Assembly (NCBI GenBank): GCA_021815445.1
Contig: JAKAGM010000001.1
Span: 3,447-67,446, forward strand
Length of the DNA: 64,000 nucleotides
From: a bacterium
GTDB lineage: Bacteria; Patescibacteriota; Patescibacteriia; UBA10025
Reading direction: 5' to 3'
The notes below the pieces were generated by a model. It saw only the letters and a list, made by a program, of their open reading frames with translations, searched no databases and was not told where the DNA came from. Numbering within the stretch: position 1 is the first letter of the stretch; the number at the start of each line of letters is the position of its first letter. Made by a program: the position numbers and the translations under genes. Of this stretch, positions 24,019 to 51,536 are shown one piece after another.

Positions 24019-24044
24019 GATCGAGGTTTGGGAATTAGAGTAGT

Positions 24045-24070
24045 GTATCAGTGTGTTAACACATTGATAC
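24045..24070. repeat. 26-bp GTTAAC-centred palindrome, copy 1
   Basis: GTATCAGTGTGTTAACACATTGATAC. The right arm overlaps a TTGATA-18 nt-TATAAT promoter (24064-24093). Confidence 0.85.
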
Positions 24071-24239
24071 ATACATAAAACTGTTTTTATAATGCATTGA
24101 CACTTGTGTGGGCGACTGCTACCATTGTCTAACCCTTTCGTACATTCGACATTCAAAAACATAACTACCAATAACAGTGCAGCCCTTTATATGTAGGCAA
24201 CACAAATTCTTAGTCCACGTTCTGAAGAAGGAGGATCAC

Positions 24240-38551: not shown

Positions 38552-38579
38552 AAAGCGTTGAAAAAGGAATAGCGTGGGT

Positions 38580-38605
38580 ATATCAACGTGTTAACACATT
38601 AATAC
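38580..38605. repeat. 26-bp GTTAAC-centred palindrome, copy 2
   Basis: ATATCAACGTGTTAACACATTAATAC followed by ATTTCG, 24 nt upstream of the 38630 ATG. Confidence 0.8.
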
Positions 38606-38629
38606 ATTTCGAAAGACAAGAACAGATCC

Positions 38630-39280: not shown

Positions 39281-39320
39281 TGTACTTTGAGGGCCATGAT
39301 GTAGCGTCGCATATGTTAGT

Positions 39321-39346
39321 GTTCCGATGTGTTAACACACTAGTAC
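39321..39346. repeat. 26-bp GTTAAC-centred palindrome, copy 3
   Basis: GTTCCGATGTGTTAACACACTAGTAC followed by ATTTCG. The left arm is degenerate. Confidence 0.75.
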
Positions 39347-39508
39347 ATTTCGTAAATAAAAAATTCCAGCCAGCCTTTTATGTGCAAACAGGGGTTGTTT
39401 TTGTTTCAGTAAGCGTATAAACTACCGGCGGTAGAGATGGTATCGCGATGTAGTGTTTTGAGAATACATCAAGGGGTCATGAGCAATGTTTTATGCTAAC
39501 ATGATAAT

Positions 39509-40990: not shown

Positions 40991-41305
40991 ATAAAAAAAG
41001 CCCCTCGCCTCAATGGTGGGTCTCATCGAGTACTCAAAGGGGCTTCTCGGGCAGCCGCGCAGGGTACGGAGTTTCATACCCACTAACGTCGCCAACGTTC
41101 TTCGCGACACCCGGTCGTTTCCAGGGAAAACCTGGTTCTGCTTGTTCTTGTCGGATAAAATAAATGTACCAATTACAAGCCTACCTTCGGTTGCCATTAA
41201 GGTCAAGTGGAATTTTTGAAATTAGTCGGACTTCTTTGTGGATCCACGTCAAACTCGCTAAGCACGACGGTACGGGCAGGCGGGGAGACTGTTTTCAGAA
41301 GTAAG

Positions 41306-41432
41306 CGGACCCAACCCCGTCATTCGCGAATGACGGGGTGGTCTTCTCCGTGATCCCGCACCATGTCGCTTCGCTCCAGATGCGGGACTTCGCAGGGAGG
41401 CATTTTCCTCAAACCGGACCCAAGGGGATTTG
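41306..41432 (-). pseudogene. degenerate partial tRNA-Asp copies
   Basis: 41410-41432 repeats 23 nt of the T-loop/acceptor/trailer segment (identical to 41568-41590). 41306-41399 carries TTGGGTCCG plus TCACGGAGAAGACCA and CTCCCTG, with a 39-nt hairpin inserted in the anticodon loop and the T-arm replaced by a 9-bp hairpin. Confidence 0.6.
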
Positions 41433-41572
41433 GTTCCGGGGTCTCGCTGTTCCTTCGGAACATCGCTCGACCCGTCTCGTCCCGCGCGAAGCAAAACTAT
41501 TTGCTTCGCTTGTTGACTCAACCCCCTGATCTTCTCGGGGATCTGTGCAAGTTAGGCGCATTGTTTCCAAAC

Positions 41573-41647
41573 CGGACCCAAGGGGATTTGAACCCCTGGT
41601 CTTCTCCGTGACAGGGAGACGTGTTAACCGGGCTACACCATGGGTCC
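41573..41647 (-). tRNA. tRNA-Asp (GTC)
   Basis: Manual cloverleaf: GGACCCA/TGGGTCC acceptor, GTGT/ACAC D-stem, TCTCC-CTGTCAC-GGAGA anticodon arm, AGGGG-TTCAAAT-CCCCT T-arm, discriminator G. No CCA is encoded. Confidence 0.9.
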
Positions 41648-41757
41648 GGTTTGGAAACAATATGTTAATGTGACGTTCACTACTTTACCAAGCGAAATGG
41701 GAAATGTACAGGGATAGCACAAAGAACTGTCACTGTCCGCCGGAGGGGCGGTTTTTC

Positions 41758-42105
41758 CTATTTTTTTGCGGCTTTCTCAACCACTGCGGCAAAGATTTGA
41801 GGATGGAATTCAGCAAGGTCAGCCAATATTTTTCTATTGAGCTCAATCTTGGCAATCTTCAGGAGATGAATTAATTTAGAATAACTCATCTTGTTCTGGC
41901 GAGCAGCGGCGTTGACTTGCATCGTCCATTGAGAGCGAAAGTCGCCTTTTTTCATCTTGCGATGCTTGTACGCGAAGGATCCCGCTTTTAGGTGAGCGAC
42001 TTTGGCAAGCCGGGGTATATTTTTCCTGCCCCACCTGTAGCCTTTTACTTTGCGCAGGAGGCGTTTTCTTTTTTTTGCCCTAATTGTTCCACGTTTGACG
42101 CGCAT
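41758..42105 (-). CDS. rplT: 50S ribosomal protein L20
   Basis: MRVKRGTIRAKKRKRLLRKVKGYRWGR... Confidence 0.95.
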   Translation of the reverse strand: MRVKRGTIRAKKRKRLLRKVKGYRWGRKNIPRLAKVAHLKAGSFAYKHRKMKKGDFRSQWTMQVNAAARQNKMSYSKLIHLLKIAKIELNRKILADLAEFHPQIFAAVVEKAAKK

Positions 42106-42110
42106 AGATA

Positions 42111-42308
42111 TTATCGGTAGGGGGTTACACGGCGAACAATCTTTTCGAATGAATGGTCAACATTTTTATCACGACGTTTCCGGCGTGTAACAATGCTCGA
42201 CTCTCGGGCGTTGAAATGGTCTTGGCCCGCTTTTCGCCTGATGAGCTTTCCGCGTTTGGTGACCCTGAAGCGTTTCGCAGTTGCTTTATGTGTTCTGAGC
42301 TTTGCCAT
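42111..42308 (-). CDS. rpmI: 50S ribosomal protein L35
   Basis: MAKLRTHKATAKRFRVTKRGKLIRRKAGQDH... Confidence 0.93.
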   Translation of the reverse strand: MAKLRTHKATAKRFRVTKRGKLIRRKAGQDHFNARESSIVTRRKRRDKNVDHSFEKIVRRVTPYR

Positions 42309-42313
42309 AGAAA

Positions 42314-42829
42314 TTATTTCTTTTTCATGAGAAGCATAGTCAGCCTGCCGCCCATTTTTGATACGTCCTGTTCTATCTGTACCGTGTCGCCGAATGAACG
42401 GGCAAACTCATGCATTTGGTCGATTGCCCGGCGCACATGTGCGCGTTCCCGTCCCCGTAAAATCATTTCCACCTGAACCTTATCTCCCTTTTCAAAAAAT
42501 TTCTCCGACTGGGCATGTCTCATCTCAAGATCGTGCTTGCCGATATTGATAGAGATACGGATGCCCTTTATCTCAACCCGTTTCTGTCTGGCCTTGTTTT
42601 TCCGTTCCAACTTCTCCTGCCGAAATTGGTAGGCGCCATAGTCCATAATACGGACCACCGGCGGATTCGCCAGGGGGGAAACCTCGATAAGGTCAAGCCC
42701 ACGCTCTTGTGCCATCTGGAGAGCGTCGCGAATAGAAACGACACCTATTTGGGCATCTTTTTCGTCGATCAACCTTACTTCCGGTACTCGAATCTGATGG
42801 TTCAGCCGATAGCGCTTAGTAGTACTAAT
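42314..42829 (-). CDS. infC: translation initiation factor IF-3 (probable ATT start)
   Basis: LDLIEVSPLANPPVVRIMDYG and other IF-3 motifs. The reading frame is open upstream of the track's TTG start and encodes ISTTKRYRLNHQIRVPEVRLIDEKD. ATT at 42829-42827 is the likely initiator, as in other infC genes. Confidence 0.85.
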   Translation of the reverse strand: MSTTKRYRLNHQIRVPEVRLIDEKDAQIGVVSIRDALQMAQERGLDLIEVSPLANPPVVRIMDYGAYQFRQEKLERKNKARQKRVEIKGIRISINIGKHDLEMRHAQSEKFFEKGDKVQVEMILRGRERAHVRRAIDQMHEFARSFGDTVQIEQDVSKMGGRLTMLLMKKK

Positions 42830-42840
42830 TGTTCTATGAA

Positions 42841-43110
42841 TTAATGATTAACTTTCTTGTAGGGGTGACCAAATTCGATCAAATTGAGTTTTTTGTCTCG
42901 CCGCCAGCCTTTAATCTGTCTTTCTCGGTTTCTTGCTTCTCGAAGAGTATCAAATTGTTCTTGATATACCAACTTTACTGGAAGCCTTTTTCTCGTATGT
43001 TCGGGACCCAACCCGAGATTGTGTATCTTAACTCTTACTTTAAGGTGGCTACTAGTTCCTGTATACAGCGAGTTATCAGAGCAAAGAAGGATGTAAAGAT
43101 AGTACTTCAT
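42841..43110 (-). CDS. GIY-YIG nuclease family protein (UPF0213-like, 89 aa)
   Basis: YYLYILLCSDNSLYTGTS...REARNRERQIKGWRRDKK. The start is refined to the ATG at 43110, because the longer track ORF runs into the tmRNA gene. Confidence 0.8.
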   Translation of the reverse strand: MKYYLYILLCSDNSLYTGTSSHLKVRVKIHNLGLGPEHTRKRLPVKLVYQEQFDTLREARNRERQIKGWRRDKKLNLIEFGHPYKKVNH

Positions 43111-43231
43111 ACTCTTGGTGCCCTTCGGTATGCTCAGGGCACCATTCGATTCAAGGCTGCCTTGACTTAAGGGGTTGTCGATCCTCCTATTGGTCGAAGA
43201 CCATGAGTGAGGAGCGTAGCGACGAATCGAA

Positions 43232-43631
43232 TGGTGGAGATGAGGGGAATTGCACCCCTGTCCAATATACGAACCAGTCAACGTCTCCAAGCTATCCTAT
43301 TTTAGCGTGGTCGATGGCAGAAGTCAAAATAGGAAAAAGGTCCTGCCATCCGAGTCTCGTGGTACGGCCGGGAGCAAGAGACACGCTCGTCGGTCGTCCT
43401 CCGTTTGTGACACCTCCGACCTTCTCAGGAGGAATCAGAAGGGGAGATGGTTATCGGTTTTTACGCGACAACAGGCGCAAAGGAAGGCGCAAATACGCTT
43501 GCAAGTGCGGTCTTCGCTTTGCTTACAAATGATTTGGCATTTGTCTAATTGGAGCCAGTTTAACGTCATGAACTGCCGTGGACGGCTTGCAGTTGAGATG
43601 GCAATGTACACTGTCGATTATAAGCATCCCC
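43232..43631 (-). ncRNA. ssrA: tmRNA (SsrA)
   Basis: 5' GGGGATGCTTATAATCGACAG... and 3' ...GGACAGGGGTGCAATTCCCCTCATCTCCACCA. The acceptor GGGGAUG/CAUCUCC includes a G3:U pair (alanine identity). It lies directly downstream of smpB. A candidate tag frame ends ...FAPVVA-UAA. Confidence 0.88.
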
Positions 43632-43665
43632 ATGATGCGCCTGATTGCGGAAAGGTTGAAAATGA

Positions 43666-44109
43666 TCAGTAGTCCAGCGCTTGCCTGATCCGCCGGTCAA
43701 CCTCGCGTTTCTTAATGGTTTCGCGCTTATCCTGTTTCTTCTTCCCGCGCGCCAAACCCAGCTCAACCTTGATCAAGCTACCCTTAGTATAGACAGAAAG
43801 CGGAATAAGTGTCAAGCCTGCCGAAGCCATCTTCCCGATCAATGATTTGATGTCCTCACGCTTCACAAGCAGCTTCTTTTCTCGGTCAGGATCCTCGTGG
43901 GATTCTTTCGAAGCACGCTGGTATCTCGCTATATGGCAGCCGATCAGCCAGAGTTCATTGCCGCGCATGCTCACATAACTTCCCATCAGAGTACAGTTGC
44001 CCAGCTTGACCGACTTTACCTCTGCGCCTCTCAATACAATACCGGCCTCAATTTTTTCGAGGATTGTGTAGTTGAAATAGCCTTTTTTGTTCTTAGCGAG
44101 GGTAGGCAT
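43666..44109 (-). CDS. smpB: SsrA-binding protein SmpB
   Basis: KNKKGYFNYTILEKIEAGIVLRGAEVKS...GLARGKKKQDKRE. Confidence 0.93.
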   Translation of the reverse strand: MPTLAKNKKGYFNYTILEKIEAGIVLRGAEVKSVKLGNCTLMGSYVSMRGNELWLIGCHIARYQRASKESHEDPDREKKLLVKREDIKSLIGKMASAGLTLIPLSVYTKGSLIKVELGLARGKKKQDKRETIKKREVDRRIRQALDY

Positions 44110-44184
44110 AGGAATATGAGTAGTATACAGGATTTTTGAACTGTGGATAATCGGGGTTGACGTCCGAAGTTGTTTGGGTGTAGT

Positions 44185-44210
44185 GTATCAATGTGTTAAC
44201 ACACTAATAC
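44185..44210. repeat. 26-bp GTTAAC-centred palindrome, copy 4
   Basis: GTATCAATGTGTTAACACACTAATAC, preceded by GTAGT as in copy 1, 22 nt upstream of the yerC-like ATG. Confidence 0.85.
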
Positions 44211-44232
44211 ACCTCAGCATGTACCCCATTTT

Positions 44233-44586
44233 ATGCCAAAGCGTTCGATAGACTGGAACAAAAGAAAAACAAGCGATCTCTTTGAAGCGGTTCTCGCGCT
44301 TAAAACGCAGGATGAGTGCAGGCGTTTTTTCCGTGACCTGTGCACGCTTGAGGAAATTGCCGCACTTGCCGACAGGTGGCAGATGGTCAAAATGATGGTC
44401 CAAGGATATTCATACCGCGATATATCGGCGAAACTCAAAGTGAGCACAACGACTGTTGCCCGTGTCGCGCAGTGGTTCACACGAGGCGAAGAGGGTTATC
44501 GGCTCGTGGTTAAGAGACTGGGGCTCACCAGACTGCCTGAAGCAAAAATTTCTTCAAATCATTATCACCACGCTTCTCTTCACTGA
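44233..44586 (+). CDS. TrpR-related YerC/YecD-family DNA-binding protein
   Basis: ECRRFFRDLCTLEEIAALADRWQMVKMMVQGYSYRDISAKLKVSTTTVARV, a Trp-repressor-like HTH. Confidence 0.8.
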   Translation: MPKRSIDWNKRKTSDLFEAVLALKTQDECRRFFRDLCTLEEIAALADRWQMVKMMVQGYSYRDISAKLKVSTTTVARVAQWFTRGEEGYRLVVKRLGLTRLPEAKISSNHYHHASLH

Positions 44587-44628
44587 AGAGGTGTCGTGAT
44601 GTGGTAGACATTTCACCGCATCCGGAGA

Positions 44629-44656
44629 AACCCCTTCAGTGCAAGAGGTTTTTTTT
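44629..44656 (+). terminator. intrinsic terminator after the yerC-like gene
   Basis: aacccctt-cagtgc-aagaggtt stem (7 of 8 bp) followed by a T8 run. Confidence 0.65.
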
Positions 44657-44874
44657 GATACATGCGTACCTTGAGAAAATCTTGAGACACGATGGGACGT
44701 GATGACAACCGTTCGCACCGAGAGAGGTGTATGTTGATGCGACAACATAAACATACCCCCTTCTCGTCATTGAGAAGAGCTTGTCGGACTGCTCCTGCAA
44801 TCCGAGACTGTCACCGTCCGGTGGCCGCCCTCACTCTCGAGCTTGCTCATGTTCATTTCATTTGGAGGTGTACC

Positions 44875-45972
44875 GTGTCAAAGCACGAAGCCAGCACGCA
44901 AACAGTGTTCGATCCAATCGGCCAGCGCTATGAAGGCCTCGCCAGGCCGTCAGGACTTCGATACGGCATTATTGAGGTAACAACCCGGTGCCAACTCGCT
45001 TGCCCAGGATGCTACATGGTTCGACGTGGCGCGCTCAATCACGGCAGTTTGTCTTTTGACCAGGCGGTCGGCGTACTTGACCGGTGCTGCGAATATACTG
45101 GCCGAGAGCTCGAAACAATGGACATCCTCGGCGGCGAGCCGCTCCTGTGGCCGCCGCTCAAAGAATACATCGTCGAGCTACTCAATCGCGGCATCAAACC
45201 TTGGCTTTTTACCAACATGCTGACGATCACGCCGTCACTGGCCCGGTGGCTCTTTGAGCGGAAGGTGCATATCACCGGCAAGCTGAACGTGGATCCGTCT
45301 GATCCTGCTCAGCTCTCTGTCCAAGCGGCGATGATTGGCCGGAACGAGCGCGTAGCCCGCCGAATGGCCGCGGCAATTTCTGTTTGGCTTGGAGTCGGAT
45401 ATCGCAACCCATTATTCCGGCTCCAAAATCTGGTTCGTCAGGCAAACATCGGATTTGTGCCCGATTACTACCGCTGGTGCCTCGAACAAGGGATTGGGAC
45501 GGATCTTGAACTCATGGGTTCCGGCGAAACGGTAGGCGCGGAGTACTATGCGGTGGCGCCGACTCCGAAACAAGTCGCCCGCATGATAGAAGCGATCCAT
45601 GCGGTTCGGCGCGAGTACGGTTTGCCGGAAGCTGAAGTGCTGATGCCCCACGTCTTTGGATCCTGCCCTTTTTATGACAAGGGGCTCTACTTCGCCGCCG
45701 ACTGTTCAATCCGTGCCTGTTCCAACTCCACGGTCACGCTTGCACACTTAAGCGACCAGGATCCGATCCGGAAAGCCTATGAGTCGCCGCTCATCTGCCG
45801 CCGGCTCAGCCTGTGCCGTGAGGTGGTAGGAGAGCCATGCCGTTCGTGCGATCGGTGGGAACGGTGCCGCGGTGGCTGCCGGGCAACCGTGGAAGGGATG
45901 GGCGACCCGTACGGCGGATATACGCTTTGTCCGCTTCCTTACCTCGGCAATGGTAAGCCCAAAGTCGGCTAG
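44875..45972 (+). CDS. radical SAM enzyme with C-terminal SPASM domain
   Basis: CQLACPGC (CX3CX2C) and the C-terminal CRSCDRWERCRGGC (CX2CX5CX3C) plus additional Cys residues. GTG at 44875 follows GGAGGTG. Alternative in-frame ATG starts exist at 44731 and 44737. Confidence 0.8.
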   Translation: MSKHEASTQTVFDPIGQRYEGLARPSGLRYGIIEVTTRCQLACPGCYMVRRGALNHGSLSFDQAVGVLDRCCEYTGRELETMDILGGEPLLWPPLKEYIVELLNRGIKPWLFTNMLTITPSLARWLFERKVHITGKLNVDPSDPAQLSVQAAMIGRNERVARRMAAAISVWLGVGYRNPLFRLQNLVRQANIGFVPDYYRWCLEQGIGTDLELMGSGETVGAEYYAVAPTPKQVARMIEAIHAVRREYGLPEAEVLMPHVFGSCPFYDKGLYFAADCSIRACSNSTVTLAHLSDQDPIRKAYESPLICRRLSLCREVVGEPCRSCDRWERCRGGCRATVEGMGDPYGGYTLCPLPYLGNGKPKVG

Positions 45973-46045
45973 GCAGCACGCAATAGTAGCGGGGGGCTGG
46001 AATAATGAACTTCTAAAGTTCCGGCCCCCCTATTTTCTCTCGACT

Positions 46046-46588
46046 ATGCGTCAAAAAATTATTACAACAGCTCAAAAGAAATTACTAGAGCTTAACCGCC
46101 GATACAACGGGTTCATGGCAGTCATCCTTGATAACTGGCGCGGTTATCGTTTTATTTACGACACTGTCGATGTTCGACGATGCCAGAATAATTGCACGCA
46201 GTGTCCGCTTTTCCGATTGTTAGCAAATGAAAAAGACGGCGCTTTTACAGCTCGCCTTCTCCGGGCGTCGCCTGCCGACCGCAGACTGTTCGGTCCCCAA
46301 AAGTATCTCAATTGTAAAACAATTTCGCAGTACCGAATGTGTTATAAGAATTTTATTGCTCAAAAAATAGCAACGCAAAAAGAATTGACGGCCGAATTAC
46401 GGCTTGTTCAAGGACTCAGGGTGCTCTACGCCAAAGAGCGAGATCCCTTGCTTGTCGAACAAGAGATAAAAAGGAATATTATCAACTTTTCTGCTCGATG
46501 GTCGCCACTCTCAGCAGCAGCCGGCAAGAGCCGGCGCAAATCATTTGACAGCTTGTTGAAAAAGGATTACACTTTATCCACATTATGA
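46046..46588 (+). CDS. hypothetical protein (180 aa), unknown family
   Basis: ORF refined to the ATG at 46046. It follows a GGGGGGCTGG...CCGGCCCCCC hairpin (45991-46030). CQNNCTQC motif. Confidence 0.5.
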   Translation: MRQKIITTAQKKLLELNRRYNGFMAVILDNWRGYRFIYDTVDVRRCQNNCTQCPLFRLLANEKDGAFTARLLRASPADRRLFGPQKYLNCKTISQYRMCYKNFIAQKIATQKELTAELRLVQGLRVLYAKERDPLLVEQEIKRNIINFSARWSPLSAAAGKSRRKSFDSLLKKDYTLSTL

Positions 46589-46689
46589 ATCTAACTTCAC
46601 TCCAACAGAAAAACCTGAAGATGTTCCGCTGGAACTTTCGTCACTATGGCGGCAGGGTTTCTTTACTGTTTGGAGTAGATATGGCGTAA
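46585..46689 (+). CDS. candidate small ORF (34 aa), possible modified-peptide precursor
   Basis: Its ATG overlaps the upstream stop (ATGA). The peptide is MNLTSLQQKNLKMFRWNFRHYGGRVSLLFGVDMA. An intrinsic terminator lies 30 nt downstream. It is absent from the ORF track because it is shorter than 60 aa. Confidence 0.35.
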   Translation: MNLTSLQQKNLKMFRWNFRHYGGRVSLLFGVDMA

Positions 46690-46719
46690 TAACGAATTCC
46701 AAAATATTCCACAGAAAGA

Positions 46720-46747
46720 AACCTCAAGCTGCCGCTCGAGGTTTTTT
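46720..46747 (+). terminator. intrinsic terminator closing the radical-SAM operon
   Basis: aacctcaag-ctgccg-ctcgaggtt stem followed by a T6 run. Confidence 0.65.
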
Positions 46748-46772
46748 GGTAAATAATTAATTTTAAGAAAGT

Positions 46773-47663
46773 ATGAACACACGCACGATTTTCATCGGAA
46801 CTATCGGCACATTCCGCGTCGAGATCCCGGTTATAGAAATAGGCTCAGGAGAGCCGAAAGGTTTGATTGTGGCCGTTCAACACGGGGGTGAGCTAAGCCC
46901 GTTATGGATTATCAAAGAACTTATCAACGCTCCCCCACGTTCGGGCGCCATGACGCTAATTCCCGTAGCAAATCCATTCGGATTCGTGTTTGGGGAGCGA
47001 AATGAGGTCATCGAACAGAAAGATCCGAACCGCCAATATCCGGGGAGGGCAAGCGGTGATTTCTCAGCCAGGATCGCGGATAAAATTTTTTCCCTGGCAA
47101 AGGAGGCTGACTTCGTTGTCGACCTGCACACGTTTACGCGCCAAGCTCCATTCCTTGTCGGCTATGAACGGGGCGGGATATCAGACGGTAACGATGTGGA
47201 AAAACTCATCCAACTGCTAGGGCCGGATGTCGTATGGACGGTTGATGAAAAGCAAGGAGAGGATAGGCGGTTTGCCGGAAGTTTTGACGGCGCTCTGGGG
47301 CGGGAGGGCGTCCCGTCGGTATTCATTGAAATGCCGAACTACCAGATGATTTCACAGGATCTCATTGTCCGTATCGCTTCCGGTATCAGAAACGTATTCG
47401 AAGGGTACTCGTCGCCTTTTCAAAAAGGGAAGGAGATCAAAAGGTTCTCGGCAAAGTATCTGTACGCGGATGATGCTGGGATCTTTGATCCGACGGTGAA
47501 ACCGCTTGAAACAGTTGTTGCGGGACAGGAGATTGGCACGCTTTATCTTCTGCCAAATTTCAAAAAGCAAAAGGTGATCACGCCCATCGGAGGGACGGTA
47601 CTCACGGTAAAAGGAAAGGATGTGATAAGGACAGGGACAAAACTTGCCAGTATCGGAGTGTAA
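46773..47663 (+). CDS. succinylglutamate desuccinylase/aspartoacylase (AstE/AspA) family Zn-hydrolase
   Basis: VQHGGE (H..E metal site), NRQYPG, VVDLHT, and a C-terminal hybrid-barrel-like tail. Confidence 0.7.
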   Translation: MNTRTIFIGTIGTFRVEIPVIEIGSGEPKGLIVAVQHGGELSPLWIIKELINAPPRSGAMTLIPVANPFGFVFGERNEVIEQKDPNRQYPGRASGDFSARIADKIFSLAKEADFVVDLHTFTRQAPFLVGYERGGISDGNDVEKLIQLLGPDVVWTVDEKQGEDRRFAGSFDGALGREGVPSVFIEMPNYQMISQDLIVRIASGIRNVFEGYSSPFQKGKEIKRFSAKYLYADDAGIFDPTVKPLETVVAGQEIGTLYLLPNFKKQKVITPIGGTVLTVKGKDVIRTGTKLASIGV

Positions 47664-47720
47664 ACCGCACGAAACAGAAAACAACAGAGAACGTTCACAA
47701 TTCACGAAAGGGGAGTGGTC

Positions 47721-49097
47721 ATGAGACCAACTCAAGAGCTGTTCAGCGATTTGCTGGCACAGGGATGCTCGTTTCGGTATCAGCCCGAGCGTTTCTGCGA
47801 ACTCGAAGGCGGAGGGCATCCGTATCCTTCACTCACACGTACAGTTTCCACACCTTCCGGCGACATGATCGAGGAGCTTATCCAGCCGGTGCTGCAACCG
47901 ATTGTCCTCGACCAACGTCTTGTCGCCAATGTACGGAAAGCTTCGGCGGCGTGGCCAACGTTTCTCGGGGTCCAACTCGAGCTTTTCCGCGCGGCGCAAA
48001 AAGGCGAGCTCAGCGGATCGGACGTCGCACTCATTAGGGGTATGTGCACCGAGCGGGAATGGAAGTGCGGACTCGTAGAGCCCGGCTACCGGACGATTCA
48101 CCCGTTTATCCGCCTGGACGCCGTGTTGACCGATGACGGTTTTAAAGTCATCGATATCAATTCGACGCGTCCGGCCGGCGTAGGGGACCTGCTCGGTTTC
48201 CACGTGGCGATGAACGGCAGTGATGGTTCGGGCATCAAACCGTTTCCCATCGGGTGCTCATTCAGCCGCATCGTGTCTTCGTGCGTGGGCGACTGGGCCT
48301 CGGCAAAACATCTGCCGGGCGAGTCGATTCCCGTTGATATTGTCGTGCGGCACACGGACGGTGACTGGAACAATTTCCGGAACCTGAGCCGCCAGCTGGC
48401 ACGTTCAGGCCTGAATACCCGGCTCATCGAACCAGATGAACTGAGGAGCGGAGAGCCAAGCGCCATTGTGCGGGGTCGCATCAAGGAAGGCGACCCGGCG
48501 TATGCCATCTTGCAGCAGGGTTACCCGAATGAGCGCTGCGTGATGTCTCCGCTCTATCGCCGTTTCCTCGGAAACAAAGTGTGGATGTATCTTTTCCGGA
48601 TTCCGCCGTTCTCCGAGCATTTCAAGCGGGTAATGGGCGAGGCATACCAGCTTTTTGACCGTCTGTTCCCGCCCATAGGGCTCTTTTCCGGCACCTCCGT
48701 TCGTTTCCCGGAAGGCTTCCTGGATATCGCGAAACTCGATCGGCAAGAATGGGTCCTCAAAGATCCGGCGAGCTCGTCAGGGCGCAGGATGTATCTCGGG
48801 TACCTGATGGGAAAGAAAAAATGGGCCGATGCGCTTGCGCAGATGCAGGACGGCTGGATCGTGCAGCGTTTCTACCGCGCGACCGAAAAACTTGCAGTTG
48901 CCGGTCCGTGTGGCGAGCCGATTGAAGAATCGCTCTTCACGAAGTACGGCATCTACATTTTCGGTTCGGAGCTTGCCGGACTGGAATTCAACGCCCGGAA
49001 AATGCCCGTTGTCCATGGTGCGCGGAATACATACTGCAACGCCGTGTACGAAACCGCAGGCCCCTCATCGTGCGCAGGAGAATTGGGGGCTCAATGA
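47721..49097 (+). CDS. glutathionylspermidine-synthase-like ATP-grasp amidoligase
   Basis: ATG lies 6 nt after GGGGAG. FKVIDINSTRPAGVGD, LGNKVWMYLF (compare LSNKAILPLLW in the GSP-synthase family), and EWVLKDPASSSGRRMYLG. Confidence 0.6.
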   Translation: MRPTQELFSDLLAQGCSFRYQPERFCELEGGGHPYPSLTRTVSTPSGDMIEELIQPVLQPIVLDQRLVANVRKASAAWPTFLGVQLELFRAAQKGELSGSDVALIRGMCTEREWKCGLVEPGYRTIHPFIRLDAVLTDDGFKVIDINSTRPAGVGDLLGFHVAMNGSDGSGIKPFPIGCSFSRIVSSCVGDWASAKHLPGESIPVDIVVRHTDGDWNNFRNLSRQLARSGLNTRLIEPDELRSGEPSAIVRGRIKEGDPAYAILQQGYPNERCVMSPLYRRFLGNKVWMYLFRIPPFSEHFKRVMGEAYQLFDRLFPPIGLFSGTSVRFPEGFLDIAKLDRQEWVLKDPASSSGRRMYLGYLMGKKKWADALAQMQDGWIVQRFYRATEKLAVAGPCGEPIEESLFTKYGIYIFGSELAGLEFNARKMPVVHGARNTYCNAVYETAGPSSCAGELGAQ

Positions 49098-49483
49098 TCC
49101 CCATGGTCAGCAAGTATTGGCTTGTCCGCGTTTGGGATATTAAAGATGTCCTGAGCGACTACGGGTTGACACCTGAGCAGACTGCGACTGTATGCGGTAC
49201 TATCGTGAACAACACGTGCATCCGCTTTACAATACAGTCGCAGTATCAGTGCGGAGTTGGCGAACCTCACGTAGTACCTTTTACCGGCGAGTACGTGGGT
49301 GTGTTTCCCGCCTTGATCCGATCGTCGCTCCTCGAGCACCATGTCATCCTCCGGCGATACAGGAGAATGATATTCCGACTCTGGAATCGGAAAGTCGCTA
49401 CTATGTATCTCGGGACGCTGGTGTGCGCGGAGCACTTTACGTACGTTAAGTCTATTCCCCTGGACTATTGGGGACCATGGTAA
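49094..49483 (+). CDS. hypothetical protein (129 aa) translationally coupled to the ATP-grasp gene
   Basis: ATGA overlap with the upstream stop. No recognisable motif. Confidence 0.45.
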   Translation: MIPMVSKYWLVRVWDIKDVLSDYGLTPEQTATVCGTIVNNTCIRFTIQSQYQCGVGEPHVVPFTGEYVGVFPALIRSSLLEHHVILRRYRRMIFRLWNRKVATMYLGTLVCAEHFTYVKSIPLDYWGPW

Positions 49484-49600
49484 CGCAAAGCAGAGTGGCA
49501 GTGGAACCTGATCGAAAGATTTGGGTCTGTAAGATCAGTAGGTTCCTCTGCACACTCTGCAGAATGCAGGCTAGGCGATCCGTCTCGGATTGTCAAGCCG

Positions 49601-49637
49601 ACAGGCAGAGCTTTTTTGAGCTATCTGCCTGTTTTTC
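49601..49637 (+). terminator. intrinsic terminator
   Basis: acaggcaga...tctgcctgt perfect 9-bp stem followed by a T5 run. Confidence 0.6.
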
Positions 49638-49666
49638 TTGACAACTTTTTACACGCAGTATACAGT
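49638..49666 (+). promoter_or_regulatory. sigma70-type promoter of the argS leader (TTGACA-17 nt-TACAGT)
   Basis: TTGACA at 49638-49643 and TACAGT at 49661-49666. Confidence 0.55.
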
Positions 49667-49683
49667 GCTCACAAACGCAGATT

Positions 49684-49740
49684 CCCCCCGTAGTGCAGTC
49701 TGGTAGCACGCTCGGTTCGGGACCGAGAAGTCGCTAGTTC
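49684..49740 (+). pseudogene. tRNA-Pro(CGG)-like 5' fragment inside the argS leader
   Basis: CCCCCCG-TA-GTGC-AGTCTGGTA-GCAC-G-CTCGG-TTCGGGA-CCGAG-AAGTC-GCTAG-TTC has canonical D and anticodon arms, but the sequence diverges inside the T-loop. I found no 3' acceptor strand. Confidence 0.55.
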
Positions 49741-49883
49741 TCCGCCACCTAAATATCCAAAGAGGCGGATCCGCCTCTGGCGGAAAATCCGGCTGGTGGC
49801 CCTCACTTTTTTCCCAATGATCGTTGCAGGACGGTCTTTTTTTCTTACCTCTTTCTCGATTCCTTGATATACTGTACACATCT

Positions 49884-51536
49884 ATGACGCTCAAAGGATT
49901 GATAGCGAGACAACTCACCAAAGATATTCTGGCGCTCTGGCCGGATGCTCGAGAAGCCCTCGAACAGGGTTCCTTTGTTGTTGATATCAGCTATCCGCCC
50001 GATTCGAAGTTCGGCCACTATACCACGAACATTGCCCTCCGGCTTAGCGCTGTTGCTAAAATGGCTCCCCAGGAGACTGCAAAAAAGATTGCTGATCGCT
50101 TCTCGCTTCCCGCTGTGCAAAAAACCGAGGTGGCGGGCCCCGGCTTCGTGAACTTTTTCCTCAAAGAATCCTGGCTTTCACGCCAGCCGGAAAAGATTAT
50201 CAAGGAAAAGAAAGCATTCGGTAAAAGCGTGCTCGGCAAAGGCCAGCGCGTTGACGTCGAGTTCATCTCAGCCAACCCCACGGGTCCGCTGACGCTCGGC
50301 AATGGCAGGGGAGCATTCATGGGCGATACATTGGCAAACGTTCTCTCGGCCGCAGGATATGTCGTGAAGCGGGATTATTATGTCAACGACATGGGCAACC
50401 AGGTCAATATCCTCGCAGAATCAGTCCTGCGCAGGTATTGGATTTCTCAGGGCATCCGCATGGAATATCCCGCATACTGTTATCAGGGGGAGTACATCGA
50501 CGATATAGCAAAAAGCCTCTACCTCCCAAATTACAATCTGGGGAAAACGTCGCTTTCCGACATTCGGGACAAGATCAAGGGGAGAATCCTCAAGCGAATG
50601 CTTGGCGGTATCCAACGTTTTGTCACGAAGCGGCTCGGGATCAAGTTCGATATGTGGTTTTCTGAACGGAGCCTCTATGTCTCGGGAAAAATGGACAAGA
50701 TGCTCGACACGCTCCGCTCGCTCGACCTCATTTTTGAGAAGGAAGATGCGATCTGGTTCCGTACGACTCAGTTCGGCGACGACAAAGACCGCGTATTGAT
50801 CCGCGCTAACAGCGAACCGACATATTTTCTCCCAGACATTGCCTACCATCACGATAAGTTCACCCGGAGGAAATTCAACAGAGTGATTAACTTCCTCGGC
50901 GCCGACCACGCGGGGTACGCGCCGAGACTGCAGGCGGCTATGAAGGCGCTCGGGCACGGCGGCAAGCTGGATATTATCGTATTCCAGCTCGTGAAGCTTA
51001 TCTCCGGCGGCAAGGAGGTCCGCATGTCGAAACGCAAAGGCATGTTTGTCACTTTCGAGGAGCTTATCGACGATGTGGGGCCTGATGCGGCGCGATACTT
51101 TTTCCTCATGCACGCGCCGAACACGCACATGGACTTCGATCTTGATTTAGCCAAGAAAAAAACGCAGGATAATCCCGTGTATTACGTCCAGTATGCTCAC
51201 GCGCGTATTTGTAGTATACTCAGGAATGCGAAAGGACTGCCGGTACTTCAAAAAGCAACGGTGGAAAGCAGCGTCCACCCAAGCCAGTTCAATCTGATGG
51301 TCAAACTTGCCCAGTGGCCTGAGATAGTCGAAGATATCGCCCAGACCTATGCGATGCACCAGCTGCCCACGTACGCGTATGAGCTTGCAACCCTTTTCCA
51401 TGAGTTTTATACTCATGTACGCGTGATTGACCAGGGTGCTGTAGCGAAAATGCCTTTTGAGCTTATCCAAGCAGCAAAAATCGTGCTCGCCAACGTGCTT
51501 ACCATGATGGGCATTTCAGCGCCTGAAAAAATGTAA
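49884..51536 (+). CDS. argS: arginine--tRNA ligase
   Basis: Start refined to the ATG at 49884. SANPTGPLTLGNGRG (HIGH region) and MSKRKG (KMSK). Confidence 0.93.
   Translation: MTLKGLIARQLTKDILALWPDAREALEQGSFVVDISYPPDSKFGHYTTNIALRLSAVAKMAPQETAKKIADRFSLPAVQKTEVAGPGFVNFFLKESWLSRQPEKIIKEKKAFGKSVLGKGQRVDVEFISANPTGPLTLGNGRGAFMGDTLANVLSAAGYVVKRDYYVNDMGNQVNILAESVLRRYWISQGIRMEYPAYCYQGEYIDDIAKSLYLPNYNLGKTSLSDIRDKIKGRILKRMLGGIQRFVTKRLGIKFDMWFSERSLYVSGKMDKMLDTLRSLDLIFEKEDAIWFRTTQFGDDKDRVLIRANSEPTYFLPDIAYHHDKFTRRKFNRVINFLGADHAGYAPRLQAAMKALGHGGKLDIIVFQLVKLISGGKEVRMSKRKGMFVTFEELIDDVGPDAARYFFLMHAPNTHMDFDLDLAKKKTQDNPVYYVQYAHARICSILRNAKGLPVLQKATVESSVHPSQFNLMVKLAQWPEIVEDIAQTYAMHQLPTYAYELATLFHEFYTHVRVIDQGAVAKMPFELIQAAKIVLANVLTMMGISAPEKM

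What the first reader, a model, noticed from the sequence alone, without database searches (positions are those of the whole stretch)
46773..49483. Operon encoding an AstE/AspA-like deacylase, a GSP-synthase-like ATP-grasp ligase and a coupled 129-aa unknown protein
The operon pairs an amide-bond-forming enzyme with an amide-bond-cleaving enzyme. The ligase is an ATP-grasp of the glutathionylspermidine-synthase type (LGNKVWMYLF, VLKDPASSSGRR). The hydrolase is a Zn hydrolase of the succinylglutamate desuccinylase/aspartoacylase family (HGGE, NRQYPG, DLH). A small protein with an ATGA overlap follows. Comparative-genomics work on amidoligases has proposed that such ligase-plus-peptidase pairs synthesise or recycle peptide tags or small amide metabolites. 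Sitting directly after the radical-SAM operon, the two units may form one pathway. The substrate is unknown, and the 129-aa protein could be the target or carrier.
Basis: partly seen in the sequence, partly recalled or inferred. Interest (0 to 1): 0.55.

Follow-up and report, generated by a model that had tools for sequence, protein, structure and literature searches.

The report
Attenuator-controlled deacylase–ligase gene pair
A zinc deacylase and an ATP-dependent amide ligase form a conserved two-gene unit in Patescibacteria (CPR bacteria), switched by a leader-peptide transcription attenuator (the "34-aa peptide") that probably senses histidine supply; the 129-aa gene is not part of the unit.

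Summary

The 129-aa ORF has no homologue anywhere. It is an insertion between the ligase and a conserved ~120-nt structured RNA.

The 34-aa ORF is conserved in front of the pair, including in genomes that lack the radical-SAM genes. It has its own promoter and is followed by an intrinsic terminator. Its 3' part co-varies with the terminator's 5' arm. This makes it a leader peptide of a ribosome-dependent attenuator, not a substrate.

Histidine occurs in all 14 independent leaders. The neighbouring YerC/HisR-like repressor ends in a His-rich tail plus attenuator, and relatives carry tRNA-His genes there.

The radical-SAM genes are a separate module that follows the YerC-like gene across Patescibacteria. 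The signal is probably histidine. The substrate is unknown.

The parts
46545..46573 (+). Promoter of the leader: -35 TTGACA (46545-46550), 17-nt spacer, -10 TACACT (46568-46573). It lies inside the 3' end of the upstream 212-aa ORF. The ATG follows the -10 box by 11 nt, so the transcript is leaderless or nearly so (inference).
   Evidence: The consensus scan scored 10/12. TTGACA is invariant in the 5-lineage alignment A2. A TTGACA-type box precedes the small ORF in nearly all 15 loci.
46585..46689 (+). 34-aa leader-peptide ORF, MNLTSLQQKNLKMFRWNFRHYGGRVSLLFGVDMA. It contains an Arg/His/aromatic block at codons 14-21.
   Evidence: It is conserved at 62-79% identity before the AstE gene in L005 and L009, which lack the radical-SAM genes. 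Equivalent ORFs of 21-34 aa occur in 16 loci. The ORF staying open in 14 independent loci has a joint probability of about 1e-11. His is in 14/14 independent leaders, P~3e-7.
46606..46630 (+). Segment 1, a possible anti-antiterminator. It is complementary to segment 2.
   Evidence: Cognate duplex energy is -10.75 versus -8.88 kcal/mol for non-cognate pairs, permutation p=0.0011. This is the weaker of the pairings.
46649..46669 (+). Segment 2 (GCGGCAGGGTTTCTTTACTGT), inside the leader ORF. It forms the 5' strand of the antiterminator.
   Evidence: It pairs with 46711-46735. Across 15 loci the cognate pairing averages -15.1 versus -9.2 kcal/mol for non-cognate, with 0/20000 permutations as good. 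GGTnTCTTTAC is invariant at the nucleotide level.
46711..46735 (+). Segment 3 (ACAGAAAGAAACCTCAAGCTGCCGC). It is shared between the antiterminator and the terminator's 5' arm.
46719..46747 (+). Intrinsic terminator: AAACCTCAAGC...GCTCGAGGTTT followed by a T-run.
   Evidence: A terminator is present in 15/15 loci with different stem sequences. It ends 24-43 nt before the AstE start in 13 of them. Compensatory changes are visible in A2. The consensus scan also found the hairpin.
46773..47663 (+). AstE/AspA-family Zn amidohydrolase, 296 aa.
   Evidence: Pfam PF24827 E=8e-17. H37, E40, H119, R76, N86, R87, R123 and E186 are invariant in 18 orthologues. Nearest solved structures by sequence are 2qj8 (1e-14) and DoeB 6twl (1e-8).
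47721..49097 (+). Carboxylate-amine ligase, 458 aa. It is a new family of circularly permuted ATP-grasp enzymes of the GSH-synthetase/GSP-synthetase type.
49094..49483 (+). 129-aa ORFan with an ATGA overlap. It is a lineage-specific insertion between the ligase stop and the conserved 3' RNA, and is not part of the conserved unit.
   Evidence: Only itself was found in 5.8e9 proteins. There is no Pfam, NCBIfam, PADLOC, PHROGs or PDB hit. In relatives the RNA element starts within about 0-30 nt of the ligase stop. The AF2 model has pLDDT 37. Its codon-position GC resembles real genes, so it may still be expressed.
49482..49602 (+). Conserved structured RNA of about 120 nt at the 3' end of the operon. 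It has a long 23-bp interrupted hairpin plus a second hairpin. Function unknown.
   Evidence: Covariance model R1 finds it directly downstream of the ligase in 8 lineages at E<=2e-9 and in 4 more weakly. 86.9% of cells are paired, 17 pairs show compensatory changes, 0/500 shuffles reach this, and slid controls give 26-43%. No Rfam family matches.
49601..49636 (+). Intrinsic terminator closing the operon: ACAGGCAGAGC...GCTATCTGCCTG followed by TTTTT. The argS promoter (TTGACA at 49638) follows.
44183..44212 (.). Context: a 30-bp palindrome, GTGTATCAATGTGTT|AACACACTAATACAC, in front of the YerC/HisR-like gene. It is a likely operator.
   Evidence: The same palindrome lies in front of the TrpR-like gene in L003, L005, L009 and L036, and over the leader promoter before the radical-SAM gene in L040. 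The half-site gives 15 matches in the window against 3.2 expected from shuffles.
44233..44586 (+). Context: YerC/YecD (HisR-type, TrpR-family) regulator. Its C-terminal tail ...SSNHYHHASLH is read as a His-rich leader.
   Evidence: TIGR02531 scores 87.4 bits against a cut-off of 42.2. YerC is HisR, with histidine as co-repressor (PMC9413887). Tails or leaders with 2-3 tandem His occur in L003, L005, L009, L038, L039, L040, L042 and L043.
44576..44656 (+). Context: an attenuator-like element after the regulator. A hairpin CTCTTCAcTGAAGAG spans the stop codon, followed by AAACCCCTTCAGTGCAAGAGG and T8. In this genome the terminator stem carries a mismatch and is weak.
   Evidence: Across 9 loci the tail/terminator-arm complementarity is -12.6 versus -8.6 kcal/mol, p=7.5e-4. 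The window copy scores only -5.9.
44875..45972 (+). Context: radical-SAM/SPASM protein. The true start is probably GTG 44875, preceded by GGAGG. It is a separate conserved module.
   Evidence: 177 clusters show 57-71% identity over 81% of the long ORF. It follows a TrpR-like gene in 5/5 other lineages. The start codon was located.
46046..46588 (+). Context: partner of the radical-SAM protein, about 150 aa with a CX3CX2C motif. Its 3' extension runs over the ancestral leader promoter.
   Evidence: It is 44-46% identical to the proteins that follow the radical-SAM gene in L038 and L040, and a relative is visible in L039.

Best explanation
The conserved unit is: promoter, leader ORF plus attenuator, AstE-like Zn amidohydrolase, GSH/GSP-synthetase-type ligase, a structured 3' RNA, and a terminator.

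Shown. The two enzymes always travel together and keep their metal, ATP and catalytic residues. They are therefore an active amide-cleaving and amide-forming pair. The pairing is analogous to the opposed synthetase and amidase activities of E. coli Gss.

Shown by comparative RNA analysis. Part of the 34-aa ORF (segment 2) can pair with the 5' arm of the downstream intrinsic terminator.

Inferred mechanism. A ribosome that translates through segment 2 lets the terminator form and aborts transcription. A ribosome stalled in the Arg/His/aromatic block just upstream leaves segment 2 free, so the antiterminator forms and the two enzymes are made.

Inferred signal. The signal is most likely shortage of charged tRNA-His, possibly with Arg. 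The unit would belong to a YerC/HisR-linked regulon that also includes the radical-SAM module next door.

Inferred chemistry. The enzymes probably handle an N-acyl or peptidyl amino acid, perhaps a histidine conjugate, that these auxotrophic bacteria scavenge, buffer or process. The substrate is not known. The 129-aa ORF is a lineage-specific insertion and plays no conserved role.
For: Pair conservation: the AstE gene lies directly upstream of the ligase in 22 loci that have upstream sequence.

Enzymes are active-looking: invariant H37/E40/H119/E186/N86-R87 in the hydrolase. In the ligase, invariant R131xD133, D145xN147 and K286, plus nearly invariant K347, match the E. coli Gss motifs. The fold is confirmed.

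Attenuator: the TTGACA promoter is conserved. A terminator is present in 15/15 loci. Cognate ORF-to-terminator-arm pairing is -15.1 versus -9.2 kcal/mol with 0/20000 permutations as good, and the cognate arm ranks first in 9/15 loci. Segment 1:2 pairing has p=0.0011. The stall scan gives antitermination up to the conserved block and termination beyond it in most loci.

Not a mature peptide: the ORF is kept open (about 1e-11), yet non-synonymous changes outnumber synonymous ones among close relatives, and the C-termini are not conserved.

Histidine link: His is enriched 3.6-fold (p=8e-7) and present in 14/14 independent leaders. The YerC/HisR-type regulator is adjacent in at least 4 lineages, and in L003 it is fused to the leader. 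Tandem-His tails followed by terminators lie before the radical-SAM gene in several lineages. Two tRNA-His genes lie between the two attenuators in L005 and L009. HisR uses histidine as co-repressor (PMC9413887).
Against: Most AstE-type leaders carry only 1-2 His codons, not a tandem run. Asn, Arg, Trp, Tyr and Phe are also enriched, and the block looks like an ordered peptide motif (about N-x-Y-R-R-H-Y-W-R). That fits a nascent-peptide sensor as well as it fits codon starvation.

In this window His20 lies only 7-14 nt from segment 2. The footprint model gives partial or full termination for a ribosome stalled there, and a stall at Arg15/Trp16 works better.

In the window group, a ribosome resting at the stop codon no longer covers segment 2, so the model needs kinetic coupling. 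Two of 15 loci (L028 and L010) have weak antiterminator complementarity.

No operator palindrome was seen at the leader promoter in the window. Nothing links the enzymes chemically to histidine. Co-expressing a ligase and a hydrolase for the same bond would be futile unless they act on different bonds or are regulated post-translationally. All folding evidence is thermodynamic and in silico.
Confidence: 0.6

Rival explanations
1. This is a three-gene (or peptide-plus-enzymes) tagging or recycling system. The ligase attaches an amino acid or amine to the 129-aa protein or the 34-aa peptide, the AstE-like enzyme removes it, and the system works together with the radical-SAM maturase as a RiPP or carrier-peptide pathway.
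For: In the window the 34-aa ORF overlaps the stop of the radical-SAM partner gene (ATGA), and the radical-SAM protein is SPASM-type with weak PqqE/MftC similarity. Ligase, hydrolase and small carrier is a known logic in the LysW system (own knowledge). YgiC/YjfC-type relatives are structural matches.
Against: The 129-aa ORF is an ORFan insertion. The 34-aa ORF is conserved without any radical-SAM gene in L005, L009, L010 and others. Its C-terminus and most of its positions are not conserved, and non-synonymous changes exceed synonymous ones. The conserved 'G-V/L-S/F' part is explained by RNA pairing with the terminator. The ATGA overlap arises because the upstream ORF runs on over the ancestral promoter.
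Confidence: 0.08
2. The attenuator is real, but the leader is a ligand-sensing arrest peptide of the SpeFL/TnaC type. The Arg/His/aromatic motif in the exit tunnel would bind a small molecule, stall the ribosome and switch on the two enzymes. The ligand could be the pathway's substrate or product, such as a basic amino acid or a polyamine. This would be substrate induction rather than starvation sensing.
For: The block is an ordered motif conserved at the peptide level while the nucleotides diverge. Most leaders carry only 1-2 His. The block sits exactly at the last position from which a stalled ribosome still permits the antiterminator. SpeFL is also 34 aa, with an HIRRxxH sensor (own knowledge, not tested here). 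The ligase's relatives use polyamines.
Against: The sister elements at the YerC-like tail carry classical tandem His codons (HHH, HH). tRNA-His genes and a HisR-type regulator are linked. Motif spacing and composition vary considerably between lineages. Two leaders, L028 and L031, lack Trp.
Confidence: 0.2
3. The leader senses decoding by queuosine-family tRNAs (His, Asn, Tyr; NAY codons). The neighbouring radical-SAM module and the pair would then serve a tRNA-modification or salvage function.
For: His, Asn and Tyr are all enriched and present in all 14 independent leaders. Tails read N-H-Y-H-H and N-L-N-H-H-N. tRNA-His(GTG) and tRNA-Asp(GTC) genes are nearby.
Against: Asp is depleted (0.30-fold). 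There is no bias between NAU and NAC codons relative to neighbouring genes. Arg, Trp and Phe enrichment is left unexplained. No queuosine-pathway similarity was detected in any protein.
Confidence: 0.04
4. There is no regulation. The small ORF is an independent small-protein gene with an ordinary terminator, the enzymes have their own unseen promoter, and the ORF-terminator complementarity is incidental.
For: The naked RNA favours the 'antiterminator' in 12/15 loci, so the hairpin might rarely terminate. L016 and L023 have 106-219 nt between the terminator and the AstE gene, which is room for a promoter.
Against: The cognate-specific co-variation (0/20000 permutations) is not expected for a plain terminator. 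The terminator ends 24-43 nt before the AstE start in 13/15 loci, which leaves little room for a promoter. The leader always accompanies the pair.
Confidence: 0.05

Closest known systems
E. coli Gss (bifunctional glutathionylspermidine synthetase/amidase) and its paralogues YgiC/YjfC
   Different: Identity is only 11-14%, and there is no Pfam GSP_synth hit for the window protein. The hydrolase here is a separate Zn AstE/AspA-type protein, not a CHAP cysteine amidase domain. The substrates are unknown. Regulation is by a leader-peptide attenuator.
Eukaryotic-type glutathione synthetase (1m0t, 2hgs)
   Different: Identity is 10-13%. No sequence-level relationship is detectable with PDB chains. 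There is no reason to expect gamma-Glu-Cys as the substrate.
AstE / aspartoacylase / DoeB (N-acyl-amino-acid Zn amidohydrolases, PF24827)
   Same: The catalytic domain, the HxxE...H zinc site, the Asn-Arg carboxylate clamp and the catalytic Glu are shared.
   Different: Scores are far below every equivalog cut-off: DoeB 36 versus 403 bits, aspartoacylase 12.7 versus 180 bits. It is a distinct subfamily that always occurs with the ligase.
Ribosome-mediated transcription attenuators (E. coli hisL/trpL; the His-leader attenuators of Firmicutes in PMC9413887)
   Same: A short ORF, mutually exclusive terminator and antiterminator hairpins, and regulatory codons upstream of the antiterminator strand are shared. 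The sister element at the YerC-like tail has 2-3 tandem His codons.
   Different: It controls an amide ligase/hydrolase pair, not a biosynthetic operon, in organisms generally regarded as amino-acid auxotrophs (own knowledge). Most leaders have a mixed Arg/His/aromatic motif rather than a codon run. The leader mRNA is apparently leaderless. In several genomes the 'leader' is the C-terminal tail of the regulator gene itself.
HisR (YerC), the TrpR-family histidine repressor
   Same: The adjacent regulator passes the YerC/YecD model cut-off. It has a palindromic site in front of its own gene.
   Different: The palindrome sequence differs from the published HisR consensus. The effector is untested. 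No his biosynthesis or transport genes were seen among its neighbours.
LysW/LysX/LysK amino-group carrier system and PEARL scaffold-peptide pathways (own knowledge)
   Different: Here the small ORF lacks a conserved C-terminus, evolves mostly by non-synonymous change, and is explained by RNA switching.

Membership tests
AstE/AspA Zn amidohydrolase superfamily (PF24827) | Catalytic-domain profile match above the curated cut-off | tested here: met
   61.8 bits against a cut-off of 25, residues 29-209.
AstE/AspA Zn amidohydrolase superfamily (PF24827) | Zn ligands HxxE plus a distal His, a catalytic Glu, and an Asn-Arg clamp that binds the substrate carboxylate | tested here: met
   H37, E40, H119, E186, N86 and R87 are invariant in 18 orthologues. 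The mapping to ASPA residues is from own knowledge.
Characterised AstE, aspartoacylase or DoeB orthologue groups | Score above the NCBIfam equivalog cut-off | tested here: not met
   DoeB 36.4 versus 402.7 bits; aspartoacylase 12.7 versus 180 bits.
GSH-synthetase/GSP-synthetase-type (circularly permuted) ATP-grasp ligases | Three-dimensional fold | tested here: met
GSH-synthetase/GSP-synthetase-type (circularly permuted) ATP-grasp ligases | Mg/ATP-binding motifs (RxD, acidic-x-Asn, GNK, [VL]K) | tested here: met
   R131, D133, D145, N147 and K286 are invariant and K347 is at least 90% conserved. The motifs were lined up by eye with Gss R316/D318/E330/N332/K498/K533. hhalign against the single Gss sequence failed.
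Pfam GSP_synth / CP_ATPgrasp_1 / CP_ATPgrasp_2 | Profile match above the gathering score | tested here: not met
   The window protein has no hit. Only 3/32 relatives hit CP_ATPgrasp_2, with a best E of 5e-5. More distant relatives are borderline.
GSH-synthetase/GSP-synthetase-type ligases | ATP-dependent carboxylate-amine ligation | not testable with these tools
   This needs an enzyme assay.
Ribosome-dependent transcription attenuator | A short translated ORF with its own promoter directly upstream of the regulated genes | tested here: met
Ribosome-dependent transcription attenuator | An intrinsic terminator between the ORF and the first structural gene | tested here: met
   Present in 15/15 loci.
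Ribosome-dependent transcription attenuator | An alternative antiterminator that uses ORF sequence and excludes the terminator, maintained by co-variation | tested here: met
   -15.1 versus -9.2 kcal/mol, 0/20000 permutations. Confirmed by the stall scan.
Ribosome-dependent transcription attenuator | A run of codons for the regulatory amino acid | tested here: inconclusive
   His is in all leaders and enriched 3.6-fold, but usually with only 1-2 codons inside a mixed motif. Tandem His occurs only in the sister elements.
Ribosome-dependent transcription attenuator | Read-through responds to translation or amino-acid supply | not testable with these tools
   This needs in vitro or in vivo assays.
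RiPP precursor or carrier peptide | A conserved core or C-terminus and constant linkage to a maturase | tested here: not met
   The C-termini vary, non-synonymous changes exceed synonymous ones, and the radical-SAM gene is linked only in the window genome.
YerC/YecD (HisR-type) TrpR-family regulators (context gene 44233-44586) | Score above the TIGR02531 cut-off | tested here: met
   87.4 versus 42.2 bits. The TrpR equivalog scores 23.8 versus 67.25 bits and is not met.
YerC/YecD (HisR-type) TrpR-family regulators | Histidine as effector | not testable with these tools
   Shown only for a Firmicutes HisR (PMC9413887).
Any Rfam family (for the leader and the 3' RNA) | Covariance-model match | tested here: not met
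   Only a tRNA and the tmRNA were found with significant scores in 41000-50000 at E<=1.

The most novel reading that the evidence does not exclude
Patescibacteria, thought to be histidine auxotrophs, may possess a histidine-responsive regulon. It would consist of a YerC/HisR-like repressor with its operator, plus His-leader attenuators, some of them fused to the repressor gene. Its two enzyme modules are the radical-SAM/SPASM protein with a CX3CX2C partner, and the ATP-dependent ligase with the Zn deacylase. Together they would form a previously unknown route to obtain or spare histidine. One possibility is a protect-modify-deprotect conversion of a scavenged precursor; another is controlled release from a histidine conjugate.
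Probability: 0.12. Interest if true: 0.9.

Novelty: new variant of a known kind. Interest (0 to 1): 0.6.

Why it matters
Patescibacteria have tiny genomes and depend on scavenged building blocks, and very little is known about how they sense and regulate nutrient supply. This locus offers three concrete things to test.

- A conserved, uncharacterised ligase family, outside current Pfam models, locked to a Zn deacylase.
- A clear case of ribosome-coupled transcription attenuation in this group. It includes regulator genes whose own C-terminal tails act as the leader peptide.
- A new structured RNA at the operon's 3' end.

If the histidine link holds, it points to how these organisms cope with shortage of an amino acid they cannot make. 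It would also assign a physiological context to a radical-SAM protein conserved across the whole group.

The finding is also a caution for annotation. Small conserved ORFs next to ATP-grasp and radical-SAM genes are not necessarily RiPP precursors.

Tried and rejected
- Sequence searches of the ligase against PDB chains, as a single sequence and as a profile, gave nothing.
- hhalign of the family profile against the single E. coli Gss sequence gave no meaningful alignment. Motifs were compared by eye instead.
- The 129-aa ORF had no homologues, no family or PDB hits, no tblastx similarity to what follows the ligase in relatives, and an uninformative AF2 model with pLDDT 37.
- The AFDB Foldseek library was unavailable.
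- Rfam found nothing for the leader or the 3' RNA.
- PADLOC and PHROGs gave no defence or phage signal, apart from a generic radical-SAM/viperin hit.
- The queuosine/NAY-codon idea was tested by codon choice and found unsupported.
- The genes behind the other three palindrome copies gave no informative Pfam hits.
- The literature search found no description of this gene pair, and none of the papers listed for the attenuator query mentioned Patescibacteria.
- The first version of the stall-scan script had an indexing error and was corrected.
- The RiPP/carrier reading of the 34-aa ORF was considered and rejected, for the reasons given under rival explanations.

Full report
**1. Observation**

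The six-frame listing confirms the ORFs.
- An AstE-like gene lies at 46773-47663 (296 aa).
- A 460-aa ORF starts at GTG 47715. Homologues show the real start is ATG 47721, giving 458 aa.
- An ORF at 49094-49483 (129 aa) has a start that overlaps the ligase stop as ATGA.

Pfam places the first protein in AstE_AspA_cat (61.8 bits, cut-off 25). The second and third proteins hit nothing in Pfam or NCBIfam.

**2. The ligase**

A search of 5.8 billion proteins found only 32 clusters. All are unnamed or 'hypothetical', and every one that carries a name is from Patescibacteria/Kerfeldbacteria-type assemblies. An exhaustive profile search of 1.84 billion representatives found 34 family members with E<1e-30. 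Scores then drop sharply to other proteins, some of which are borderline to CP_ATPgrasp_2, CP_ATPgrasp_1 or GSP_synth.

An AlphaFold model built on the family alignment is confident (pLDDT 92.8).
- Foldseek agrees, with TM 0.61-0.67 to GSH synthetases.

Conserved residues of the family match motifs of E. coli Gss:

| This family | E. coli Gss |
|---|---|
| R131xD133 ... D145xN147 | R316xD318 ... E330xN332 |
| GNK286 | GNK498 |
| [VL]K347 (at least 90% conserved) | VK533 |

The family nevertheless lies outside current Pfam models.

**3. The hydrolase**

Eighteen orthologues taken from the related loci keep H37, E40 and H119 (the zinc site), N86-R87, R76, R123 and E186. The protein is far below the cut-offs for DoeB and aspartoacylase. 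Its nearest solved relatives by sequence are an uncharacterised Mlr6093 and DoeB. It is an active-looking member of the superfamily with unknown specificity.

**4. What is conserved around the pair**

I collected 37 related loci from look-ups of encoding contigs and from genome and metagenome scans. The AstE gene lies directly upstream of the ligase in all 22 loci that have upstream sequence. One locus, L024, has only a remnant of the AstE gene.

The downstream gene varies: nothing, argS, an M29 peptidase, DUF8173 or an unrelated 116-aa ORF. The 129-aa protein occurs nowhere else.

The radical-SAM genes are absent from the closest relatives (L009 at 65% and L005 at 56% ligase identity). These relatives are otherwise syntenic with the window: malQ, rplT, rpmI, infC, smpB, the TrpR-like gene, the pair, and argS.

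**5. The 34-aa ORF is a leader peptide**

tblastn showed the 34-aa ORF at 62-79% identity just before the AstE gene in L005 and L009, which lack the radical-SAM genes. A scan of upstream regions found an ATG-initiated ORF of 21-34 codons, ending 74-112 nt before the AstE gene in 13 of 16 loci that have such an ORF (L030).

A five-lineage DNA alignment shows three features:
- an invariant TTGACA with a -10 box 17 nt downstream, about 11 nt before the ATG;
- nucleotide-level invariance of GGTnTCTTTAC inside the ORF;
- a hairpin plus T-run with compensatory changes.

All 15 loci examined have an intrinsic terminator after the ORF. In each, the 3' part of the ORF is complementary to the 5' arm of its own terminator, although the stem sequences differ between loci.
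- Cognate duplexes average -15.1 kcal/mol against -9.2 for non-cognate combinations.
- None of 20,000 permutations reached the cognate mean.
- The cognate arm ranks first in 9 of 15 loci.

This pairing explains the apparently conserved 'R-G-V/L-S/F' end of the peptide as an RNA constraint. A weaker upstream complement (segment 1) is also cognate-specific (p=0.0011).

I also ran a simple footprint scan.
- A ribosome whose A site is anywhere up to the Arg/His/aromatic block leaves the antiterminator intact.
- A ribosome further on, covering segment 2, lets the terminator form.
- Naked RNA favours the antiterminator in 12 of 15 loci.

The ORF has been kept open in 14 independent lineages (joint probability about 1e-11). 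Yet close relatives differ mostly by non-synonymous changes, and the C-termini are not conserved. That is the behaviour of a leader peptide, not of a mature peptide or RiPP core.

In the window the upstream 212-aa ORF simply runs on across this ancestral promoter until the leader's ATG. This produces the ATGA overlap that made the peptide look like part of the radical-SAM operon.

**6. What might be sensed**

Aligned on segment 2, the leaders share a block resembling N-x-[YW]-R-R-H-[YF]-W-R, 4-10 codons upstream. His is the most enriched residue (3.6-fold, p=8e-7). It is present in all 14 independent leaders (P~3e-7). Asn, Arg, Trp, Tyr and Phe are also enriched.

The context points to histidine.
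- The gene at 44233-44586 passes the YerC/YecD model. YerC is HisR, a histidine-responsive repressor (PMC9413887).
- Its tail reads ...SSNHYHHASLH. A hairpin spans the stop codon and a terminator-like hairpin with eight Ts follows.
- In L005 the tail is ...SIHHHRASLH. In L009 it is a separate 17-aa ORF, MASIVNISLHHHYTSLH.
- In both of those genomes two tRNA-His genes follow, before the AstE leader.
- In L003 the YerC-like gene is fused to the AstE-type leader (...KANHHTILSRRER plus a terminator) directly in front of the pair. L030 has the same leader as a free ORF.

Caveats apply.
- Most AstE-type leaders have one or two His codons, not a run.
- In the window His20 is very close to segment 2, and the footprint model works better for a stall at Arg15/Trp16.
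- The ordered motif is equally compatible with a ligand-sensing arrest peptide.

I therefore rate 'attenuator' as well supported and 'histidine' as probable only.

**7. The radical-SAM module is separate but related in regulation**

The radical-SAM/SPASM protein probably starts at GTG 44875. It is 57-71% identical to 177 clusters across many Patescibacteria classes. In five further lineages examined it follows a TrpR-like gene directly. It is in turn followed by a 150-175-aa protein, shown for L038 and L040 (and visible in L039) to be homologous to the core of the window's 212-aa ORF, with a CX3CX2C motif.

The TrpR-like tails there read KGHHRNSSSPRKGLS, KHHHNSASVRKGLS, NNHHRINSPRSR and MHHHPKS. 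In L040 there is instead a free leader, MNYIFLNNLHHTKGLG. Each that was examined is followed by a terminator whose 5' arm complements the tail (-12.6 versus -8.6 kcal/mol, p=7.5e-4). The window's own copy is weak because of a stem mismatch.

A 30-bp palindrome lies in front of the TrpR-like gene in five lineages and over the leader promoter in L040. The window has three more copies.

The window therefore juxtaposes two conserved modules that share a regulator and a leader type. This is indirect support for a common regulon, not for a single operon.

**8. The real third element**

The 160 nt after the 129-aa ORF are similar to the sequence that follows the ligase stop directly in relatives. They fold into a long interrupted hairpin plus a second hairpin.

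A covariance model finds the element immediately after the ligase in eight lineages at E<=2e-9, and more weakly in four others.
- 86.9% of cells are paired.
- 17 pairs show compensatory changes.
- 0 of 500 shuffles reach this, and slid controls give 26-43% paired.

Rfam has no match. A terminator and the argS promoter follow. The 129-aa ORF is thus an insertion of about 385 nt between the ligase and this RNA. Its codon-position GC looks coding, so it may be a young gene, but it is not part of the conserved system.

**9. Mechanism and comparison**

What is shown:
- a strictly linked ligase-hydrolase pair that looks active;
- a promoter, leader ORF, antiterminator and terminator arrangement maintained by co-variation;
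- a structured 3' RNA;
- linkage to a YerC-type regulator.

What is inferred:
- translation-controlled termination;
- histidine (His-tRNA) as the signal;
- an N-acyl or peptidyl amino acid as the substrate.

The closest functional analogue is E. coli Gss, where a synthetase of this fold is coupled to an amidase for the same bond. The closest regulatory analogue is the his or trp leader. The system fails the membership tests for any characterised orthologue group and for the Pfam ligase families. I therefore file it as a new variant of known kinds, with unknown chemistry.

**10. Verdict**

The 129-aa protein is incidental, the 34-aa 'peptide' is a regulatory leader, and the radical-SAM genes are a neighbouring module.

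The finding remains moderately interesting (0.6). It covers a lineage-specific, uncharacterised ligase family, clear ribosome-mediated attenuation in Patescibacteria with regulator-leader fusions, and a new RNA motif. Together these may define a histidine-responsive regulon in organisms that are not expected to make histidine.

Noticed in passing
window 49482-49602 (+): A conserved structured RNA of about 120 nt lies directly after the ligase gene in at least 8 lineages. It is strongly supported by compensatory changes and has no Rfam family. In the window it is separated from the ligase by the inserted 129-aa ORF. Its function is unknown.
   Followed up: yes
window 44557-44656 (+); L005 5940-6060; L009 1352-1480; L038 4858-4955; L042, L043: The YerC/HisR-like regulator gene ends in a His-rich tail (NHYHH, HHH, HH) followed by attenuator-like hairpins, so the regulator's own translation appears to serve as the leader peptide. 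In L009 the same element is a free 17-aa ORF. The window's terminator stem has a mismatch and may be leaky.
   Followed up: partly
window 24043-24072, 38578-38607, 39319-39348, 44183-44212: There are four copies of a 30-bp palindrome, GTGTATCARTGTGTT|AACACAYTRATACAY. One lies in front of the YerC-like gene, a position conserved in five lineages. The others lie in front of two small membrane-protein genes and malQ. It is a candidate operator and hints at a wider regulon.
   Followed up: partly
window 44875-46588; L038, L039, L040, L042, L043: The order TrpR/YerC-like gene, radical-SAM/SPASM gene, then a 150-175-aa protein (shown to be a CX3CX2C homologue in L038-L040) is conserved across distant Patescibacteria classes. 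The radical-SAM protein is 57-71% identical across them. Its function is unknown.
   Followed up: partly
L005 6574-6752; L009 1647-1720 and 2095-2170: Two tRNA-His(GTG) genes, plus a conserved 93-aa ORF, occupy the position that the radical-SAM genes hold in the window, between the His-tail attenuator and the AstE leader. The window has no tRNA-His gene within its 64 kb.
   Followed up: partly
window 44692-44874: The long radical-SAM ORF called from ATG 44692 is probably over-extended by about 60 codons. Homologues cover only 81% of it, and GTG 44875 has a GGAGG box. The extension contains another His-containing stretch (MLMRQHKHTPFSS) and a hairpin at 44758-44779.
   Followed up: partly
window 46568-46587 and equivalent positions in 15 loci: The leader ATG lies only 6-15 nt after the -10 box in the loci examined. 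This implies leaderless or nearly leaderless leader transcripts.
   Followed up: no
L003 6860-7030; L030 160-330: In the clade with NHH-type leaders, a further spacer of 170-240 nt with a second conserved-looking hairpin separates the first terminator from the AstE gene.
   Followed up: no
L024 1-381: One lineage carries only fragments of the AstE gene (N- and C-terminal pieces with stop codons) in front of an intact ligase. This is either gene decay or an assembly artefact.
   Followed up: partly
window 43232-43631 (-), 41572-41648 (-): A tmRNA gene (tag AKSFVSKAKTALASVFAPSFAPVVA) lies next to smpB, and a tRNA-Asp(GTC) gene is nearby. Both are ordinary.
   Followed up: no
L014, L018, L019: Three related contigs are labelled 'uncultured Gammaproteobacteria' in their records. 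Their gene content and the family distribution suggest Patescibacteria, so the labels are probably binning or taxonomy errors.
   Followed up: no
L039: The Gracilibacteria locus reads TGA as a sense codon (code 25), so the gene calls there made with table 11 are truncated or merged.
   Followed up: no
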